Part shown: positions 16,251 through 23,471 of the stretch, piece by piece
Numbering within the stretch: the stretch's first letter is position 1
Layout of the letters: the number at the start of each line of letters is the position of its first letter
From: a virus
Lineage: Duplodnaviria; Heunggongvirae; Uroviricota; Caudoviricetes
DNA length: 26,759 bases
Reading direction: 5' to 3' (one strand)
Virus record (IMG/VR): IMGVR_UViG_3300029085_000054
Notes under the pieces: model-generated
Told to the model about the DNA's origin: nothing
The model's input: only the letters and a program-made list of their open reading frames with translations
Databases searched by the model: none
Program-made: the position numbers and the translations under genes

Positions 16251-18023
16251 ATGACCATCACCACAGACACCACTCTTTTACACGACCCGCGTCGTCAGGC
16301 GGCGCTGCTGTACTGGCAGGGGTTTTCCGTGCCGCAGATTGCCGCCATGTTGCAGATGAAACGCCCGACGGTGCAGAGCTGGAAACAGCGCGACGGCTGG
16401 GACAGTGTTGCCCCCATCAGCCGTGTCGAAATGAGTCTGGAAGCGCGGCTGACCCAGCTCATCATCAAACCGCAGAAAACCGGCAGTGACTTCAAGGAAA
16501 TTGACCTGCTGGGACGCCAGATTGAACGACTGGCACGGGTCAACCGCTACAGCCAGACCGGCAACGAGGCAGACCTTAATCCGAACGTCGCTAACCGCAA
16601 CAAAGGCGGGCGTCGCAAACCGAAAAAGAATTTTTTCAGTGACGAGGCCATCGAAAAGCTGGAGCAGATTTTCTTTGAGCAGTCTTTCGACTATCAGTTG
16701 CACTGGTATCGCGCCGGGCTTGAGCACCGCATCCGCGATATCCTGAAATCCCGCCAGATTGGCGCGACGTTTTATTTTTCCCGCGAGGCGCTGCTGCGCG
16801 CCCTGAAAACCGGCCATAACCAGATTTTTCTGTCGGCCAGTAAAACGCAGGCGTATGTGTTCCGTGAATACATCATCGCCTTTGCCCGTCTGGTTGACGT
16901 TGACCTTACCGGTGACCCGATTGTCCTGGGCAATAACGGCGCAAAACTGATTTTTCTCGGCACCAACTCCAACACCGCACAAAGCCATAACGGCGACCTG
17001 TACGTCGATGAGATTTTCTGGATCCCGAATTTTCAGGTACTGCGTAAGGTGGCATCAGGTATGGCCTCACAGAGTCACCTGCGCTCGACCTATTTCTCCA
17101 CCCCGTCCACGCTGGCGCACGACGCCTACCCGTTCTGGTCGGGTGAACTGTTCAACCGGGGACGCGCCAGCGCCGCCGAACGCGTGGAAATCGACGTCAG
17201 TCATAACGCCCTTGCCGGAGGTCTTCTCTGTGCGGACGGCCAGTGGCGGCAGATTGTCACCATTGAGGATGCCCTGAAAGGTGGCTGCACGCTGTTCGAC
17301 ATTGAGCAGCTTAAACGCGAAAACAGCGCCGACGATTTTAAAAACCTGTTCATGTGTGAATTTGTTGACGACAAGGCGTCGGTGTTCCCGTTCGAGGAGC
17401 TGCAACGCTGCATGGTCGACACGCTGGAAGAATGGGAAGACTATGCGCCGTTTGCCGCCAATCCGTTCGGCTCACGTCCGGTATGGATTGGTTACGACCC
17501 GTCACACCGTGGCGACAGCGCCGGATGCGTGGTACTGGCACCGCCGGTGGTGGCCGGAGGCAAATTCAGAATACTTGAGCGTCACCAGTGGAAAGGCATG
17601 GACTTTGCCACCCAGGCTGAATCAATCCGAAAACTCACCGAAAAATATAACGTCGAATACATCGGTATTGATGCCACCGGCCTCGGTGTCGGCGTGTTCC
17701 AGCTCGTGCGCTCGTTCTATCCCGCCGCGCGCGATATCCGCTACACACCGGAAATGAAAACCGCAATGGTGCTCAAGGCAAAAGACGTTATTCGCCGTGG
17801 CTGTCTGGAATATGACGTCAGCGCCACCGACATCACCAGCTCGTTTATGGCTATCCGCAAGACCATGACCAGCAGCGGACGCAGCGCCACCTATGAGGCC
17901 AGCCGCAGCGAGGAAGCCAGCCATGCCGACCTCGCCTGGGCGACCATGCACGCCCTGTTAAATGAGCCACTCACCGCCGGTATCAGCACCCCGCTGACAT
18001 CCACCATTCTGGAGTTTTACTGA
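16251..18023 (+). CDS. P: Terminase large (ATPase) subunit gpP (590 aa)
   Basis: ATG at 16251 preceded by GAGG; product begins MTITTDTTLLHDPRRQAALLYWQGF; 590 aa as in P2; stop overlaps the Q start (TGATG). Confidence 0.92.
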   Translation: MTITTDTTLLHDPRRQAALLYWQGFSVPQIAAMLQMKRPTVQSWKQRDGWDSVAPISRVEMSLEARLTQLIIKPQKTGSDFKEIDLLGRQIERLARVNRYSQTGNEADLNPNVANRNKGGRRKPKKNFFSDEAIEKLEQIFFEQSFDYQLHWYRAGLEHRIRDILKSRQIGATFYFSREALLRALKTGHNQIFLSASKTQAYVFREYIIAFARLVDVDLTGDPIVLGNNGAKLIFLGTNSNTAQSHNGDLYVDEIFWIPNFQVLRKVASGMASQSHLRSTYFSTPSTLAHDAYPFWSGELFNRGRASAAERVEIDVSHNALAGGLLCADGQWRQIVTIEDALKGGCTLFDIEQLKRENSADDFKNLFMCEFVDDKASVFPFEELQRCMVDTLEEWEDYAPFAANPFGSRPVWIGYDPSHRGDSAGCVVLAPPVVAGGKFRILERHQWKGMDFATQAESIRKLTEKYNVEYIGIDATGLGVGVFQLVRSFYPAARDIRYTPEMKTAMVLKAKDVIRRGCLEYDVSATDITSSFMAIRKTMTSSGRSATYEASRSEEASHADLAWATMHALLNEPLTAGISTPLTSTILEFY

Positions 18024-19057
18024 TGAGCAAGAAAAAAGGGAAAACACCGCGACCTGCGGCAAAGACAATCACCGCCAGCGCCCCGAAAATGGAAGCATTC
18101 ACCTTTGGTGAGCCGGTGCCGGTACTCGACCGCCGTGACATTCTGGATTACGTCGAGTGCATCAGTAACGGCAGATGGTATGAGCCACCGGTCAGCTTTA
18201 CCGGTCTGGCAAAAAGCCTGCGTGCTGCCGTGCATCACAGCTCACCGATTTACGTTAAACGCAATATTCTGGCCTCGACATTTATCCCGCATCCGTGGCT
18301 TTCCCAGCAGGATTTCAGCCGCTTTGTGCTGGATTTTCTGGTGTTCGGTAATGCATTTCTGGAAAAGCGTTACAGCACCACCGGTAAGGTCATCAGACTG
18401 GAAACCTCACCGGCAAAATATACCCGCCGTGGTGTGGAAGAGGATGTTTACTGGTGGGTGCCGTCCTTCAACGAGCCGACAGCCTTCGCACCCGGCTCCG
18501 TGTTTCACCTGCTGGAGCCGGATATTAATCAGGAGCTGTACGGCCTGCCGGAATATCTCAGCGCCCTTAACTCTGCCTGGCTGAATGAGTCGGCCACGCT
18601 GTTCCGCCGCAAGTATTACGAAAACGGCGCTCATGCCGGATACATCATGTACGTCACTGATGCCGTGCAGGATCGCAACGATATCGAAATGCTTCGCGAA
18701 AACATGGTGAAGTCGAAAGGCCGCAATAACTTTAAAAATCTGTTTCTCTATGCCCCGCAGGGGAAAGCTGACGGCATTAAAATTATCCCGCTCAGTGAAG
18801 TGGCGACGAAGGACGATTTTTTTAATATCAAAAAAGCCAGCGCCGCTGACCTGCTGGACGCACACCGCATCCCCTTTCAGTTGATGGGCGGCAAGCCGGA
18901 GAACGTCGGGTCACTGGGTGATATTGAGAAAGTGGCAAAGGTCTTTGTCCGCAATGAGCTTATCCCGTTACAGGACAGGATTCGGGAAATAAACGGCTGG
19001 CTCGGTCAGGAGGTTATCCGCTTTAAAAACTACTCACTGGACACTGACAACGGCTGA
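18023..19057 (+). CDS. Q: Portal protein gpQ (344 aa)
   Basis: ORF track 344 aa; translationally coupled to P; lies about 170 nt from cos as in P2. Confidence 0.92.
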   Translation: MSKKKGKTPRPAAKTITASAPKMEAFTFGEPVPVLDRRDILDYVECISNGRWYEPPVSFTGLAKSLRAAVHHSSPIYVKRNILASTFIPHPWLSQQDFSRFVLDFLVFGNAFLEKRYSTTGKVIRLETSPAKYTRRGVEEDVYWWVPSFNEPTAFAPGSVFHLLEPDINQELYGLPEYLSALNSAWLNESATLFRRKYYENGAHAGYIMYVTDAVQDRNDIEMLRENMVKSKGRNNFKNLFLYAPQGKADGIKIIPLSEVATKDDFFNIKKASAADLLDAHRIPFQLMGGKPENVGSLGDIEKVAKVFVRNELIPLQDRIREINGWLGQEVIRFKNYSLDTDNG

Positions 19058-19061
19058 ACAT

Positions 19062-19084
19062 CGCCGCCTGCGGGCGGCTTTTTC
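19062..19084 (+). terminator. Rho-independent terminator after Q
   Basis: GCCGCC-TGCG-GGCGGC followed by TTTTT immediately after the Q stop codon. Confidence 0.7.
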
Positions 19085-19226
19085 ACACCCCGCCATCACG
19101 CCCTCACACGCTCATCACCGCACAAAAAATCCCGCAGACACACCAACGCCCTAGCAGGCCAAATAAACGCCTTCACGACGCGCTCAGACGCTGAAAAAAT
19201 AAAATCAGCACCACCGTCAGCGCGCA

Positions 19227-19245
19227 GTGCTTTCCCCGCCTCGCC
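19227..19245. other. cos: cos cohesive-end site (19 nt), matching the P2 cohesive end as recalled
   Basis: Plus strand GTGCTTTCCCCGCCTCGCC is the reverse complement of GGCGAGGCGGGGAAAGCAC, which I recall as the P2 5' cohesive end; the flanking sequence also matches my recollection of the P2 left end. Confidence 0.8.
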
Positions 19246-19404
19246 CGCCCGCTTCGTGGTGCTGTTTTAATGCAGTTGCATGAACACTCCAAGAGCGCGC
19301 CAGCACTGGCGGCGCTCACACGTAACGGGGAAGGAAAACGCATGCGATTCGATGCAGTAATGCATGCGGAGCTGAAAAATGGCAGAAAATACTGAAAAAA
19401 CGCA

Positions 19405-19433
19405 TAAAAAAACCGGCATTCAGGTTGCCGGTT
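19405..19433 (-). terminator. Rho-independent terminator acting on minus-strand transcripts entering from the hotspot
   Basis: Stem ACCGGCA / TGCCGGT with a 7-nt loop; on the minus strand it is followed by a 7-nt T run (plus-strand A run 19405..19411). Confidence 0.6.
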
Positions 19434-19570
19434 TGAGTCAGCTTCATTGTGGTTACTTGTCGCGCAATGCGCCAATAATACTGGTCAGGCAACAAGTGGC
19501 AACAATCAGCAAAAAAACCGTCGTCCACGGATTTTCATAAACGAGAGATAACATATTGATAAAGTTCCTT

Positions 19571-19702
19571 TTATTTGTTCATTCTGATGTGGTTTAAAAG
19601 GTGTTTGATAACGACCGTAAGCTCATCTTTACTGGCTTGCTCGACCATTTTTTCGGTGTAGCTTTCCACTTCGCGGGAACTCAGGTCGTTATTTGAGGCC
19701 AT
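19571..19702 (-). CDS. Hypothetical small protein (43 aa from ATG 19702; an alternative ATG at 19765 gives 64 aa); uncertain
   Basis: Minus-strand frame MASNNDLSSREVESYTEKMVEQASKDELTVVIKHLLNHIRMNK has protein-like composition; weak RBS-like AAGAGA upstream; diverges from the 143-aa gene. Confidence 0.25.
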   Translation of the reverse strand: MASNNDLSSREVESYTEKMVEQASKDELTVVIKHLLNHIRMNK

Positions 19703-19763
19703 TACAGTGAGTCTCTTTGCCCAGTCGGCATAAGGGTCTTTAATTGATGAAAGGGAATTATGC

Positions 19764-20195
19764 ATGTCCAAAAACCTCGAATTATTTAACCAGCAGACGG
19801 CTGAAATCTTTGCGGTGCTATGGGATAACTTTCCTGTACCACAAGTCATCACCTACAAAAAATTTAACGCCGCGTTACCTGATGATTACTTTGACCAACT
19901 TAACTCACCAGAAATGAAAGCACTGAATCAGTTGCGTAGTGTGGTTGATGGCACATTCACTTTCCTAAGCGAAAACGGCTATATTCTGTACGGAACAGAC
20001 CATCAGACCGGTTTTCATGATGTGCGCCTGACCGAGAAAGCACTCGCAGTGCTCAACAAAAAACCCGAAGCACTCGGTGGTAATGAAACAATGGGAGATA
20101 AGATTATCAGCGCGGTGAAGGACGGGACGCCTGGTGTTATTGCCGGTGCAGTAACAAACCTGCTTACCCTCGGAGTCAATCTAATGACCAGCTAA
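19764..20195 (+). CDS. Hypothetical hotspot cargo protein (143 aa) with a Gly-rich hydrophobic C-terminal segment; no family recognised
   Basis: Only long ORF in the AT-rich hotspot; ATG at 19764 preceded by AAGGGA at 19751..19756; C-terminus GTPGVIAGAVTNLLTLGVNLM is hydrophobic and contains a GxxxG motif. Confidence 0.6.
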   Translation: MSKNLELFNQQTAEIFAVLWDNFPVPQVITYKKFNAALPDDYFDQLNSPEMKALNQLRSVVDGTFTFLSENGYILYGTDHQTGFHDVRLTEKALAVLNKKPEALGGNETMGDKIISAVKDGTPGVIAGAVTNLLTLGVNLMTS

Positions 20196-20220
20196 CGCCT
20201 CGCTGCGCTCGTTGTTCAAC

Positions 20221-20259
20221 CCCGCCAGCCCTGAAAACAAGTTTCACGACTGGCGGCGT
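20221..20259. terminator. Imperfect long hairpin between the convergent 143-aa gene and the small minus-strand ORFs; possible bidirectional terminator
   Basis: CCGCCAG ... CTGGCGG inverted repeat with partial internal pairing (CTGAAAAC / GTTTCACG); no strong T run on either side. Confidence 0.35.
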
Positions 20260-20262
20260 TCT

Positions 20263-20469
20263 CTATCGTCTGCGTGGTGGTGGCATAACTCTGGATTGAC
20301 CGATATGGTTAAACCGCCCGTAATTATCCCGGACTATTTCGGCACACCCGACCAGCTCATCGGGCGTCAGATTTTCGTTGACCATAATCTGCTGCAAACG
20401 CTGAACAATAGCCATCAGCTTGATATTTTTAGTTTTATGGTGCGGTATCTCACCTGGTATTCTGTGCAT
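20263..20469 (-). CDS. Hypothetical small protein (68 aa); uncertain
   Basis: Manual translation from ATG 20469..20467: MHRIPGEIPHHKTKNIKLMAIVQRLQQIMVNENLTPDELVGCAEIVRDNYGRFNHIGQSRVMPPPRRR. Its start overlaps the stop of the upstream 45-aa ORF (TAATG). The opposite strand carries a competing TTG-start ORF. Confidence 0.35.
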   Translation of the reverse strand: MHRIPGEIPHHKTKNIKLMAIVQRLQQIMVNENLTPDELVGCAEIVRDNYGRFNHIGQSRVMPPPRRR

Positions 20470-20606
20470 TATCCAAGCCACCCGTTTTGCTGTGCACGCT
20501 CCATCTGTTCATCTGAATAATTCCATGCTCCATCCGTGGCAACCATTGCCCCGCCAGACATCCCCGTCTCTGGTTCATACATAACAGCAAGGCCGAGCTG
20601 ATGCAT
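20469..20606 (-). CDS. Hypothetical small protein (45 aa); uncertain
   Basis: Manual translation from ATG 20606..20604: MHQLGLAVMYEPETGMSGGAMVATDGAWNYSDEQMERAQQNGWLG, stop TAA 20471..20469. No clear Shine-Dalgarno; below the ORF-track length cutoff. Confidence 0.28.
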   Translation of the reverse strand: MHQLGLAVMYEPETGMSGGAMVATDGAWNYSDEQMERAQQNGWLG

Positions 20607-20654
20607 AATTTCATGATTAATTCTGAATACCAGGCCACGCTCACTAAGTTCTTT

Positions 20655-20921
20655 TCAGTTCACAATCTTATATGCTCCCGTATTAAGCAGCTCAATACTT
20701 AGCAAGACATAATCTTCCAGCCAGTCTGACAGGTCAGTAACATCTGTTATCCGGGCTTCAACCTTTCGCCCCGTAAACACACCCTGCACCCATTCATGCA
20801 AAATCAGTGTGTCCCCGCGCTCATAATTACGGTCATTTTTCCGAAACTCTGCACGTTTATGTCCTTCCAGCACAAGGTCGAAATATTTTGCGTGCAGCTT
20901 TACCTCGTGAATTTTTGCCAT
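20655..20921 (-). CDS. orf91-like small protein downstream of A (88 aa); possibly ASCH/PUA-like fold
   Basis: ATG 20921..20919 overlaps the A stop (TAATG) and is preceded by GGAG; product MAKIHEVKLHAKYFDLVLEGHKRAEFRKNDRNYERGDTLILHEW; occupies the P2 orf91 position. Confidence 0.75.
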   Translation of the reverse strand: MAKIHEVKLHAKYFDLVLEGHKRAEFRKNDRNYERGDTLILHEWVQGVFTGRKVEARITDVTDLSDWLEDYVLLSIELLNTGAYKIVN

Positions 20922-23206
20922 TATGTCCACTCCATTACTGTTGAGAATCCCGGCCACTCATCAGCGACCGGATACGTGAATTTTTTCCCGTCGTAATTTA
21001 CGGTTGCCCCACGCGCCAGCGCCTCAATCTCCCATCGCTGAGGCCTGATACCGTTCTGAGCAAGGTCAACGCGGATACGGGTGATTTGCATTCGCTCCGA
21101 CCGGGTCAGTCTGGCCGACGGTGCAATTTCATGCGGTTTTAACGGGCTTCCGTTTCTTTGCTGACGATTAGGTGTTCTCAGGCCGTGTTTTAATGCGCCC
21201 CTGAGCGCCCTCACAACCTCCGGGTCGTTCCATTCGATAACACCACCATCAACCAGATTAAGCACTGCTGCGGCGTGCTCAGAAGGTGTGGGAGCCGGTA
21301 ACGCAGTATCACCGCCGGTGAGCTTTCCACAGTTATTGACAGGACTCCGAGGCGCGGCGATGCCGCTTTTTAAAGTCAAAGGCTCAACGACCGGAACTTT
21401 CGGCACAATGCGCCAGTCCGTCGTTCTGGTGATATGAATATGACGCGCGCCGAGATGCGGCGCGTAAATGCCGACCACTCTCTCGACTTCTTCCTCGTAC
21501 TCGTTAACTTCATCCGACGGACTACGGGCAACCCTGACAGTCTGACAATCGCGCGGAACATTTGCCCCACCCTGCGCGCTGATATACAACGCAAAATCAC
21601 CACTGTCTGCGGCAGCGCGTGCAGCCTCGACGCGTTCGTCAAACTCATCAGCAATGCTGACGCCGCGAGGCAATTTGCGTAGTTCACGGTAAGCCCCCAT
21701 TGTCGGCAGACCAACCGTTTTAAATTGCGGGATGCGCCACGTTGACGCCCATGCGGTAACAGCCGCCGCAGTGTCTTTCAGCGGCCTGCCGGTATCGTTA
21801 TCGAGCTGACCATCCAGTGCATAGCCGTCGATGTTTTTTGAGATGTATTTCGCGATATATCCCGCAGCACCGCCCCGGTTAAGGTGTTTCGCCTGAAAAC
21901 GGTTTCGCGCGGCTCCTCTTTCGTCGCCATCTTCTTTGAGCGCATAGCGACGCATGGTTTCGATAATCTGGTTACGCTGACGTGGATTACAAAAAAGCAT
22001 CATATGCCAGTGCGGCGTTCCGTCGTGGTGTGGCTCGACGACACGCAAACCGTAGACCTGTAAATCATTATCCTTGAATGCCGTGCGCATCAGGCTCCAG
22101 ATACGGCAGAGATAACGCTGCGCATCCTTTGGATTAAATGCCTCATCGTTCCAGCCGTGATTTAGCTGGACGGTTTTACTTTCGCCTTTTCCGACCTGAC
22201 GTGTCGGGTGATACTTTGACGGCGCGGTCAGCGTGATAAACATCCCCACATCACCCTCTGCGGCGGCGTAACGCTCAATACCGGCAATGGTGTTCATCAG
22301 CTCCATCCGGCGAATTTCAGGATTAGAAATACTGCCCATCACCTTACTGATAAGGTCGATGCGCTCGCCGGTTTCCCTGTTTTCAAGGTCACACGATTTA
22401 AGAAATTCCAGATTTGCCTGGCGGCGTGCACGCACATCACGAATGGCATGTTTACTGGCATAAGGAGAACGGTCTTTATTCACCTCCCCGACAGCAATCA
22501 GTAACGCCTCATGCCAGCGCATACGCTGACCTTTAAGCTGATGAGTCCACCACTCATCGTTAAACAGACGGGCAATGGCAGAATATGCCTGCCTCGTGGT
22601 CATCTGTCCTTTACGGTATTTTTTCCAGTAGAGAGGGGAAATATTGAAAGCTCGTGCAGCGCCAGCAATATGACCATACAGATGCGCCTGAGCCTCATCC
22701 GTAAACAGCGATTCTTTCTCGCCATGTGCATCAACCCATGCATCGCAGAGTTCCTCATACATCATGAAAAGCTGCGATGAGATACGGGCGGCAAACTTTT
22801 TCAGTTCCTTGTCATTCATCCCCGGCAGACGCGCATAATGGTCACGCTCTGCCAGAAACAGCAACGACGCGTCGGTGTTCATTTCATGGCGCTGATTCAC
22901 GCGCTCAATGCGCGGCCATAAACGACGCTGAAAAGTGGATGTGAGGAAATAAAACCCGTGCACCGGGCTTTTATTGCGCCGGATGTAGTCATAGCGTGAG
23001 GTAAACAGCGAGCGCAAAAAGTAAGGCAGGCGGTTAATCGTGGATAAAACACCTTGCACCTGACGCATCTCGTCACGTGTAAGGGGTCTTTCGCGCCCGA
23101 CGGCCTCGCGTGGCGCGTTCCATGCATAAGCACCGGTAAACGCCTTACCGGTGCCTGCGGCAAATGCTGACGGAGGGACAAAACGCCCGGAGGCTTTAAC
23201 GGCCAT
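20921..23206 (-). CDS. A: Replication initiation (rolling-circle nicking) protein gpA (761 aa)
   Basis: From ATG 23206..23204 the product MAVKASGRFVPPSAFAAGTGK... is 761 aa and matches P2 gpA as I recall it along its length; the ORF-track start at 23248 is an upstream extension. Confidence 0.93.
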   Translation of the reverse strand: MAVKASGRFVPPSAFAAGTGKAFTGAYAWNAPREAVGRERPLTRDEMRQVQGVLSTINRLPYFLRSLFTSRYDYIRRNKSPVHGFYFLTSTFQRRLWPRIERVNQRHEMNTDASLLFLAERDHYARLPGMNDKELKKFAARISSQLFMMYEELCDAWVDAHGEKESLFTDEAQAHLYGHIAGAARAFNISPLYWKKYRKGQMTTRQAYSAIARLFNDEWWTHQLKGQRMRWHEALLIAVGEVNKDRSPYASKHAIRDVRARRQANLEFLKSCDLENRETGERIDLISKVMGSISNPEIRRMELMNTIAGIERYAAAEGDVGMFITLTAPSKYHPTRQVGKGESKTVQLNHGWNDEAFNPKDAQRYLCRIWSLMRTAFKDNDLQVYGLRVVEPHHDGTPHWHMMLFCNPRQRNQIIETMRRYALKEDGDERGAARNRFQAKHLNRGGAAGYIAKYISKNIDGYALDGQLDNDTGRPLKDTAAAVTAWASTWRIPQFKTVGLPTMGAYRELRKLPRGVSIADEFDERVEAARAAADSGDFALYISAQGGANVPRDCQTVRVARSPSDEVNEYEEEVERVVGIYAPHLGARHIHITRTTDWRIVPKVPVVEPLTLKSGIAAPRSPVNNCGKLTGGDTALPAPTPSEHAAAVLNLVDGGVIEWNDPEVVRALRGALKHGLRTPNRQQRNGSPLKPHEIAPSARLTRSERMQITRIRVDLAQNGIRPQRWEIEALARGATVNYDGKKFTYPVADEWPGFSTVMEWT

Positions 23207-23471
23207 ATGAGCCAAAAGCCTCTGAACAACACCTGCTGAGTTGCTCAACCTGCGCGTTTAAATCAGCAAAAGACTTTGCGCTTCCGGTCAGAATATCGTG
23301 ATGCATCAGGCCGGAAACGAGCTGGCTTAATTTCGGGTAATAACCAACCACCGACAGCCATTCCTGACCGGCGTTTTTACCGCTTTCCGCTCTCTTTTTC
23401 TCGTGGAGAATAAACTGAAAGCTGTCACTGGTAACGACATAACGTTCGCCAATTTCAATACGAATGCTCAT
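23196..23471 (-). CDS. orf83-like hypothetical protein (91 aa)
   Basis: ATG at 23471 overlaps the stop of the upstream gene (ATGA); 3' end overlaps the A start. Confidence 0.7.
   Translation of the reverse strand: MSIRIEIGERYVVTSDSFQFILHEKKRAESGKNAGQEWLSVVGYYPKLSQLVSGLMHHDILTGSAKSFADLNAQVEQLSRCCSEAFGSYGR

What the first reader, a model, noticed from the sequence alone, without database searches (positions are those of the whole stretch)
20196..20606. Ambiguous coding strand: coupled 45-aa and 68-aa minus-strand ORFs versus a TTG-start 102-aa plus-strand ORF
On the minus strand, ATG-initiated ORFs of 45 aa (20469..20606) and 68 aa (20263..20469) are joined by a TAATG stop/start overlap, a layout typical of two-gene operons such as toxin-antitoxin pairs, and lie downstream of orf91 in the A orientation. 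The plus-strand ORF in the track (20212..20520) starts at TTG and has an odd Trp/Cys-rich composition. A long imperfect hairpin (20221..20259) sits between these ORFs and the convergent 143-aa gene. The minus-strand ORFs could equally be fragments of a decayed larger gene.
Basis: seen in the sequence. Interest (0 to 1): 0.55.

Follow-up and report, generated by a model that had tools for sequence, protein, structure and literature searches.

The report
Broken phage gene plus small conserved gene
The coding strand is the minus strand: the 45-aa ORF is the tail of a 150-codon P2-type phage gene cut by a single stop mutation, the 68-aa ORF is a real conserved small phage gene of unknown function, and the plus-strand ORF is not a gene, so the locus is ordinary and RefSeq already annotates it this way.

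Summary
The window is a P2-like prophage, 100% identical to E. coli NZ_OZ038535.1.

- **45-aa ORF.** It lies in the same frame as orf91 and is separated from it by one in-frame TGA (20655-20657). All 58 colinear relatives have TGG (Trp89) there and encode an intact 150-aa DUF3850/ASCH + DUF7415 protein (phrog_1812). Among 5,426 complete E. coli genomes, a 51-mer centred on this codon matches 1 genome as TGA and 339 as TGG. RefSeq flags the gene as a pseudogene with an internal stop.
- **68-aa ORF.** It is a real gene (phrog_11386, WP_053263922.1). It is open in 55 of 55 unique relatives, with pN/pS 0.18. It sits after gene A behind several different upstream genes. AlphaFold predicts a helical hairpin.
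- **Plus-strand 102-aa ORF.** It is open in only 12 of 55 relatives, with pN/pS 0.89, so it is not coding.
- **Toxin-antitoxin reading.** There is no support for it.
- **Hairpin.** It is a covariation-supported stem-loop inside a 69-nt element that ends the conserved early operon.
- **Lead.** Distant homologues of the 68-aa protein, in the same genomic slot, carry a ClpX-type zinc finger.

The parts
20469..20921 (-). 150-codon DUF3850(ASCH)+DUF7415 gene (the long form of P2 orf91, phrog_1812). Here it is a pseudogene with one internal stop.
   Evidence: A continuous frame reads MAKIHEV...AYKIVN*KELSERG...QNGWLG. Relatives give an intact 150-aa ORF. Read through, it matches PF12961 at 9e-18, PF24187 at 1.7e-14 and phrog_1812 over 1-150/150 at 2e-81. 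RefSeq annotates it as a pseudogene with 'internal stop'.
20658..20921 (-). They contain the complete DUF3850/ASCH domain.
   Evidence: PF12961 covers 1-77/77 on residues 4-76, E = 4.8e-18.
20655..20657 (-). In-frame TGA at codon 89. The ancestral codon is TGG (Trp).
   Evidence: Codon 89 is TGG in 58 loci and TGA in the window only. A 51-mer with TGA matches 1 of 5,426 E. coli genomes; with TGG it matches 339.
20472..20654 (-). 61 codons encoding the DUF7415 part, now downstream of the stop. They are otherwise undamaged.
   Evidence: PF24187 E = 6.4e-12. The amino-acid sequence is identical to intact relatives such as L002. Codon-usage score is +0.27 bits per codon.
20469..20606 (-). The '45-aa ORF'. 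This is the stretch of the DUF7415 segment from its first in-frame ATG to the stop, not an independent gene.
   Evidence: It matches only positions 30-52 of the 53-position DUF7415 model. There is no Shine-Dalgarno-like motif in the 20 nt upstream (sequence). It is never a separate ORF in the 58 colinear relatives.
20263..20469 (-). 68-aa gene (phrog_11386; WP_053263922.1). It is the last gene of the conserved early operon. Its ATG overlaps the upstream TAA (TAATG).
   Evidence: The frame is open in 55/55 unique relatives, with pN/pS 0.18. phrog_11386 E = 4.8e-39. There are 189 clusters at 90% identity, all named hypothetical protein apart from a spurious 'meiotically up-regulated 80' label on two truncated clusters. 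AlphaFold gives a helical hairpin, H10-31 and H36-60, with block-mean pLDDT 91-97 over residues 21-50.
20192..20260 (-). Conserved 69-nt non-coding element that closes the conserved block. It holds a 15-pair stem-loop (about 20220-20258). It ends in GTTAG, whose complement supplies the TAA stop of the convergent 143-aa gene.
   Evidence: It was found in 81 of the 90 sequences searched and in 518 E. coli genomes, at 1-2 places each. RNAalifold shows 7 of 21 predicted pairs with compensatory changes, all in the main 15-pair stem. Homology with other P2-like phages stops at about 20192. There is no Rfam match.
20212..20520 (+). 102-aa TTG ORF. It is a non-coding antisense shadow of the 68-aa gene and the DUF7415 segment.
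   Evidence: Its frame is open in only 12/55 unique relatives, with pN/pS 0.89. Its length in relatives ranges from 0 to 117 aa. RefSeq does not annotate it.
19764..20195 (+). Convergent 143-aa cargo gene (phrog_2266) of the P2 A-Q hotspot. This is context, not part of the operon.
   Evidence: phrog_2266 E = 1.9e-61. It recurs as cargo in L044, L057, L066, L085 and L087.

Best explanation
Window 20192-20921, read on the minus strand, is the 3' end of the early (replication) operon of a P2-like prophage.

1. After gene A comes a 150-codon gene for a two-domain protein: DUF3850/ASCH (a putative RNA-binding fold) plus DUF7415.
2. In this prophage a single G>A change turned Trp89 (TGG) into TGA. 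Translation therefore stops after an 88-aa product that still holds the whole ASCH domain. The DUF7415 coding segment is left untranslated. The '45-aa ORF' is simply the piece of that segment lying after its first ATG.
3. The next gene, 68 aa, is intact. It encodes a small helical-hairpin protein that P2-like phages keep as the last early gene. Its start overlaps the upstream stop, so it is normally translated by ribosomes finishing the upstream gene.
4. A conserved stem-loop follows and marks the border with the variable defence/cargo hotspot.
5. The plus-strand 102-aa ORF is an accidental open frame.

Shown here: the gene structure, the mutation and its rarity, purifying selection on the 68-aa frame, synteny, and covariation in the stem.

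Inferred, not shown:
- Transcription from the P2 early promoter (established P2 biology, from my own knowledge).
- Translational coupling, and its loss here through polarity.
- Low-level UGA read-through by tRNA-Trp, which would restore the wild-type protein.
- The stem-loop acting as a transcript-end or insulating hairpin.
- Any molecular function of the two proteins.
For: - **Same frame.** One TGA separates orf91 from the 45-aa ORF.
- **Intact relatives.** 150-aa ORFs occur in relatives. Codon 89 is TGG in 58 of 59 sequences.
- **Rarity of the TGA allele.** It is found in 1 of 5,426 genomes, against 339 for TGG.
- **Annotation.** RefSeq marks a pseudogene with 'internal stop' and a 68-aa hypothetical protein, and no plus-strand gene.
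- **Family matches.** Pfam and PHROG matches are full length.
- **68-aa frame.** It is open in 55/55 unique relatives with pN/pS 0.18. The plus-strand frame is open in 12/55 with pN/pS 0.89.
- **Independent module.** The 68-aa gene lies behind different upstream genes, always with a tight or overlapping junction.
- **Synteny.** Distant homologues sit in the same slot: after gene A in Logan contig L095, and after gene A and before the portal gene in L093, L094 and phage P88.
- **Stem-loop.** It folds stably and shows compensatory changes.
- **Block boundary.** Homology to other P2-like phages ends at about 20192.
Against: - No expression data exist for this locus.
- Codon-usage scoring within the window does not separate the 68-aa ORF (-0.05 bits per codon) from the plus-strand ORF (-0.02).
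- Divergence in the DUF7415 segment is low (pS 0.06). Its pN/pS of 0.39 is therefore only weakly discriminating, and the +1 frame is also open in 40/44 sequences.
- The stem-loop lacks a U-tract on the minus strand and was not called as a terminator.
- The G>A change could be an assembly error.
Confidence: 0.88

Rival explanations
1. The 45-aa and 68-aa ORFs form a two-gene toxin-antitoxin (or similar addiction or defence) module.
For: They share a TAATG stop/start overlap, are small, and lie next to a known defence hotspot.
Against: - The 45-aa ORF is part of a 150-aa gene in all 58 colinear relatives.
- Pfam, PADLOC and NCBIfam give no toxin, antitoxin or defence family match.
- The 68-aa gene occurs without DUF7415, behind unrelated genes.
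- Phage P2 lacks the DUF7415 part and all but about the first 10 codons of the 68-aa gene.
- Tight stop/start junctions occur with every type of upstream gene, so they reflect phage operon packing.
Confidence: 0.02
2. The plus-strand 102-aa TTG ORF is the real gene and the minus-strand ORFs are shadows.
For: It is the longest ORF in the interval. It matches phrog_33524, meaning some phage annotations have called it.
Against: - The frame is open in only 12/55 unique relatives, with pN/pS 0.89.
- Its length is erratic across loci.
- It starts at TTG.
- RefSeq does not call it.
- PHROG membership reflects annotation only.
Confidence: 0.02
3. The TGA is functional. It could be a programmed read-through or a deliberate split giving an ASCH-only protein plus a minor full-length form.
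For: - UGA is the leakiest stop codon in E. coli, and tRNA-Trp mis-reading would restore the ancestral residue (general knowledge, not tested).
- The downstream 61 codons are undamaged.
- ASCH-only versions exist in other P2-like phages, for example the P2 orf91 chimera and the 86-aa DUF3850 gene in L093.
Against: - The stop is private to one genome out of roughly 340 carrying the gene.
- No recoding signal is conserved.
- Undamaged downstream codons fit a recent mutation equally well.
Confidence: 0.05
4. The TGA is a sequencing or assembly error, and the 150-aa gene is intact in the living strain.
For: It is a single-base difference seen in one assembly only.
Against: It is a substitution rather than a homopolymer indel, which is not the usual long-read error type. 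Nothing else in the 765-nt block looks abnormal. This cannot be tested here.
Confidence: 0.08

Closest known systems
P2 orf91 / DUF3850 (ASCH-like) domain protein; long form phrog_1812 with DUF7415
   Same: It holds the same position directly after replication gene A. The shared DNA is 97% identical to P2 over the first 300 nt. Read through, it is fully colinear with phrog_1812.
   Different: Here the gene is cut by an internal TGA at codon 89. The P2 reference orf91 is itself a different derivative. A 232-bp deletion joins codon ~76 to codon 2 of the 68-aa gene, and the tin/old cassette follows. No function is known for either form.
phrog_11386 / WP_053263922.1 family of 67-81-aa hypothetical proteins of enterobacterial P2-like prophages
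   Same: It matches the family model along its whole length (4.8e-39). The RefSeq protein is identical. Synteny and the conserved core KLMAIVxRLQxIMVNENLTPxELVGCAEIVRDNY are the same.
   Different: Nothing differs materially; it is a typical member. The family has no Pfam model and no experimental data.
Small phage proteins with a C-terminal ClpX-type C4 zinc finger (PF06689), e.g. phage P88 AIZ95127 and D6 orf93
   Same: The N-terminal helical domain is homologous to the 68-aa protein. Profile E-values are 4.3e-10, 8.0e-10 and 2.4e-11 for P0150, P0151 and P0147. They sit in the same slot after gene A and before the portal in P2-like prophages.
   Different: The window protein has no zinc finger. 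It ends in a Pro/Arg-rich tail (PPPRRR). No functional link to ClpX is shown for any member.
Type II toxin-antitoxin operons
   Same: They also have two small overlapping ORFs and a mobile-element context.
   Different: The upstream 'gene' here is a gene fragment. There are no TA domains and no obligate pairing.
Intrinsic (Rho-independent) terminators and 3' stabilising stem-loops
   Same: It is a GC-rich stem-loop a few bases after the last stop codon of an operon. The structure is conserved, with compensatory changes.
   Different: There is no U-tract on the operon strand, and the terminator scan did not call it. The stem-loop is embedded in a longer conserved 69-nt element. A second direct copy of that element lies elsewhere in the hotspot in 8 loci.

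Membership tests
Type II toxin-antitoxin pair | Two independent adjacent genes | tested here: not met
   The 45-aa ORF is the tail of a 150-aa gene in 58 of 58 colinear relatives.
Type II toxin-antitoxin pair | Recognisable toxin or antitoxin domain | tested here: not met
   Pfam, PADLOC and NCBIfam give no such match.
Type II toxin-antitoxin pair | Obligate co-occurrence of the two partners | tested here: not met
   The 68-aa gene follows unrelated genes in L044, L066 and L086. A 232-bp deletion in P2 removes the DUF7415 part and leaves about the first 10 codons of the 68-aa gene.
Type II toxin-antitoxin pair | Toxicity of one product, neutralised by the other | not testable with these tools
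   This needs expression experiments.
DUF3850/ASCH + DUF7415 protein (phrog_1812) | Both Pfam domains score above their gathering thresholds, with full-length colinearity | tested here: met
   On the intact 150-aa orthologue from L002, PF12961 scores 64.7 bits (cut-off 22.9) and PF24187 54.2 bits (cut-off 27). On the window's own two pieces they score 65.6 and 45.9 bits. phrog_1812 is matched over 1-150/150.
DUF3850/ASCH + DUF7415 protein (phrog_1812) | Uninterrupted reading frame | tested here: not met
   There is a TGA at codon 89. RefSeq marks it a pseudogene.
phrog_11386 (68-aa early protein of P2-like phages) | Full-length match to the family model | tested here: met
   E = 4.8e-39, model positions 1-68 of 69.
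phrog_11386 (68-aa early protein of P2-like phages) | Protein-coding constraint on this frame | tested here: met
   pN/pS is 0.18 and the frame is open in 55/55 sequences. Indels in relatives keep the reading frame open.
phrog_11386 (68-aa early protein of P2-like phages) | Position downstream of replication gene A, before the hotspot and portal | tested here: met
ClpX-type zinc-finger (PF06689) fusion relatives | C4 zinc-finger domain | tested here: not met
   The window protein has no CxxC pairs and no PF06689 hit.
ClpX-type zinc-finger (PF06689) fusion relatives | Homologous N-terminal helical domain | tested here: met
   The profile of the 68-aa family hits P0147 to P0155 at E-values of 2.4e-11 to 2.8e-5 over the N-domain.
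Intrinsic terminator | GC-rich stem-loop directly after the operon | tested here: met
Intrinsic terminator | U-tract immediately 3' of the stem | tested here: not met
   The minus-strand tail is GGGGUUGAACAACG, and the scan did not list it.
Programmed stop-codon read-through | The stop codon is conserved among relatives | tested here: not met
   Codon 89 is TGG in 58 of 58 relatives. The TGA allele occurs in 1 genome against 339.

The most novel reading that the evidence does not exclude
The 68-aa protein may be the minimal form of an early protein found in several lineages of P2-like phages (Peduoviridae). In this reading its helical-hairpin domain works with or on the host ClpX unfoldase. 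In distant members the same domain is fused to a ClpX-type zinc-binding domain. In the enterobacterial short forms a Pro/Arg-rich C-terminal tail replaces the zinc finger. The protein would then be a phage modulator of ClpXP-dependent proteolysis, encoded as the fixed last gene before the defence hotspot.
Probability: 0.12. Interest if true: 0.55.

Novelty: already known. Interest (0 to 1): 0.18.

Why it matters
For annotation, the result removes a false ambiguity. There is no toxin-antitoxin pair and no plus-strand gene, only a pseudogenised accessory gene and a conserved small gene. RefSeq already shows the locus this way.

Two by-products may interest people working on the P2 defence hotspot.

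- The true left border of the variable region is a conserved 68-aa gene plus a 69-nt structured element. A second direct copy of that element lies elsewhere in the hotspot in some prophages.
- The 68-aa family has relatives fused to a ClpX-type zinc finger. This gives a first testable idea about its function.

Neither by-product is established here.

Tried and rejected
- **AlphaFold of the intact 151-aa protein** failed, with mean pLDDT 35 from a shallow alignment.
- **A profile search against PDB sequences** matched only through the zinc finger of the long relatives.
- **Rfam** gave no match in 19000-21000.
- **PADLOC and NCBIfam** gave nothing relevant.
- **Literature.** No paper mentions DUF7415. 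Orf91 is listed as 'unknown', and one preprint calls it essential in passing. The two hotspot papers were searched by keyword only and one or two sections of one were read. Neither mentioned orf91, DUF3850 or the 69-nt element in what was seen.
- **The word-indexed protein search** with the 61-aa DUF7415 segment returned only 12 clusters and missed the 150-aa forms.
- **An integron attC-like reading of the 69-nt element** was considered and dropped. The inverse core site is absent, and no integron integrase is expected in P2-like phages (background knowledge, not checked here).

Full report
**Context.** The window is a P2-like prophage in reverse orientation. On the plus strand lie the terminase and portal genes, with portal Q at 18023-19057. 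Next come the cos-proximal variable region and then, on the minus strand, the end of the early operon with replication gene A at 20921-23248. Bases 20196-20960 are 100% identical to E. coli NZ_OZ038535.1 and 96-97% identical to many P2-like phages and prophages. The interval between A and Q is the known P2 defence/cargo hotspot (PMC9122126).

**Observation.** The 45-aa and 68-aa minus-strand ORFs share one base in TAATG. The plus-strand ORF is 102 aa, starts at TTG, and has 5 Trp and 3 Cys. There is a stable stem-loop at about 20218-20260, with a centroid energy of -28.8 kcal/mol; the 91-nt stretch containing it has z = -3.3 against shuffles.

**The 45-aa ORF.** Translating the minus strand from the orf91 ATG gives one continuous frame...AYKIVN*KELSERGLVFRINHEIMHQLG...QNGWLG*. 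The 45-aa ORF is therefore in frame with orf91, behind a single TGA at 20655-20657.

- In relatives this is one 150-aa ORF. On the intact orthologue from L002 it matches DUF3850/ASCH (PF12961, 9e-18) and DUF7415 (PF24187, 1.7e-14), and phrog_1812 along its full length (2e-81).
- On its own, the 45-aa peptide matches only model positions 30-52 of DUF7415.
- Among 59 colinear sequences, codon 89 is TGG in 58 and TGA only in the window.
- A 51-mer centred on the codon finds 1 of 5,426 complete E. coli genomes as TGA and 339 as TGG. Every megablast seed must span the variable base, so this comparison is a fair allele count.
- RefSeq annotates exactly this: a 453-nt 'DUF3850 domain-containing protein', pseudogene, 'internal stop'.
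- The 61 codons after the stop are undamaged, so the mutation is recent. Alternatively, it is an assembly error, which I cannot exclude.
- The remaining 88-aa product holds the entire DUF3850 model.
- No Shine-Dalgarno-like motif precedes ATG 20606 (sequence). Independent translation of a 45-aa peptide is therefore unlikely (inference).
- Occasional decay of this gene is also seen elsewhere. Wphi has frameshifts, and its 'gp92' is an artefact of them. L004 has a late stop, and L024 has a frameshift.

**The 68-aa ORF.**

- It is identical to RefSeq WP_053263922.1 and matches phrog_11386 from its ATG (4.8e-39).
- In 89 related loci the frame is almost always open, and length changes in relatives leave the frame open.
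- Over a 46-codon core, 55 of 55 unique sequences are open, with pN/pS 0.18. The frame of the plus-strand ORF is open in 12 of 55, with pN/pS 0.89.
- The plus-strand ORF varies from 0 to 117 aa across loci. Its PHROG hit (phrog_33524) only shows that some annotators have called it.
- Codon usage within the window does not decide between the strands. The comparative evidence does.

**Not a pair.**

- The 68-aa gene follows unrelated genes in other prophages: a 71-aa acidic protein in L066, a 101-aa protein in L086, and another in L044. In each case the junction is overlapping or nearly abutting. The TAATG therefore reflects ordinary operon packing.
- DNA homology with several loci begins exactly at its ATG, which marks it as an independent module.
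- The P2 reference lacks most of this region. A 232-bp deletion joins orf91 codon ~76 to codon 2 of the 68-aa gene. Only about 27 nt of the 68-aa gene remain before the tin/old cassette. P2 is a viable phage (general knowledge), so the DUF7415 part and the 68-aa protein are presumably dispensable for growth.
- Pfam, PADLOC and NCBIfam show no toxin, antitoxin or defence family.

**What the 68-aa protein might do.**

- The family is small: 189 clusters at 90% identity in the word-indexed search, and 31 representatives at 50% identity among 1.84 billion proteins. The members that carry an organism name are all Enterobacteriaceae.
- AlphaFold gives a two-helix hairpin with a confident core. Block-mean pLDDT is 91-97 over residues 21-50. 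It has no meaningful structural neighbours.
- The profile search found distant members of 101-122 aa. In these the same N-terminal domain is followed by a ClpX-type C4 zinc finger, PF06689, with E-values down to 6e-19.
- Two of them were located, and they sit in the same slot of P2-like prophages, after Phage_GPA and before the cargo or portal (L093, L094). Phage P88 (Peduoviridae) has one there too, and the P1-like phage D6 has one elsewhere.
- This suggests, but does not show, a link to ClpX. I rate that reading at about 0.12.

**The hairpin.**

- The stem-loop is part of a 69-nt element (20192-20260) found in 81 of the 90 sequences searched. It also occurs in 518 E. coli genomes at one or two places each, so it is specific to these prophages and is not a genome-wide repeat.
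- RNAalifold predicts a 15-pair stem. Seven of the 21 predicted pairs keep pairing through changes on both sides, all of them in that stem. The fully compensated variants are L058, L054, L050 and L085.
- It lacks a U-tract on the operon strand and was not called as a terminator. There is no Rfam match.
- Conservation stops right after GTTAG, whose complement provides the TAA of the convergent 143-aa gene.
- Eight loci carry a second direct copy. It lies after a co-directional cargo gene in L006/L070, L010/L011 and L077/L078, and upstream of the 68-aa gene in L062/L064.
- The most economical reading is a transcript-end or insulating hairpin at the operon-cargo border that also serves as shared homology for cargo exchange. 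This is inference.

**Verdict.** The coding strand is not ambiguous. The locus comprises a pseudogenised DUF3850-DUF7415 gene, an intact conserved 68-aa gene and a conserved structured spacer. The public annotation already shows the first two. Interest in the finding as stated is low. The ClpX zinc-finger relatives and the repeated border element are modest leads.

Noticed in passing
window 19453-19554 (-) versus 19379-19540 (+): A 33-aa hydrophobic ORF (MLSLVYENPWTTVFLLIVATCCLTSIIGALRDK) keeps its exact length and stop in 9 loci, with pN/pS 0.35. A canonical intrinsic terminator follows it at 19434-19410 (-). RefSeq instead annotates a 53-aa ORF on the opposite strand (WP_276376614.1), whose frame is broken in relatives. 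The RefSeq call is probably on the wrong strand.
   Followed up: partly
L092 (P2 NC_001895) 1817-2146; window 20469-20700 equivalent: The reference P2 orf91 is a deletion chimera. 232 bp are missing, which fuses ASCH codon ~76 to codon 2 of the 68-aa gene (HRILGEILP...). An unrelated tail follows before tin/old.
   Followed up: yes
window 20192-20260; second copies in L006, L010, L011, L062, L064, L070, L077, L078: The 69-nt structured element occurs as a direct repeat in 8 of the 90 sequences searched. The second copy follows a co-directional cargo gene or lies upstream of the 68-aa gene. Conservation ends at GTTAG, which supplies the stop codon of convergent cargo genes. This could be the exchange point of the P2 hotspot.
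   Followed up: partly
L093 6001-6369, L094 5001-5345, L097 3983-4315 (phage P88), L098 3022-3342 (phage D6): Distant homologues of the 68-aa protein carry a C-terminal ClpX-type zinc finger. In P2-like prophages they occupy the same slot after gene A. The P88 copy is mis-annotated as 'carboxylate-amine ligase'.
   Followed up: partly
L001 (phage Wphi) 2725-2919: Wphi 'gp92' is a frameshifted reading across the DUF7415 segment and the start of the 68-aa gene. It is not a separate gene.
   Followed up: yes
P0090, P0093 (50-51-aa N-truncated versions of the 68-aa protein): NCBI names these 'meiotically up-regulated 80 protein', which is a spurious transfer of a yeast name. They correspond to loci (L065, L071-L076) where cargo is inserted upstream and replaces the gene's 5' end.
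   Followed up: no
window 19571-20195: The hotspot cargo here has three parts: a 143-aa gene (+, phrog_2266), a divergent 43-64-aa gene (-, phrog_2454) and the 33-aa peptide. The same set recurs in Escherichia and Scandinavium loci (L044, L057, L066, L085, L087). It has no defence-family match.
   Followed up: no
P0180, P0182 (129-151 aa): Some E. coli proteins join a Phage_Cox (PF10743) N-terminus to the DUF7415 tail at the motif ITDVTDLSDWLEDYVLL. These are probably deletion chimeras of the early operon in defective prophages.
   Followed up: no
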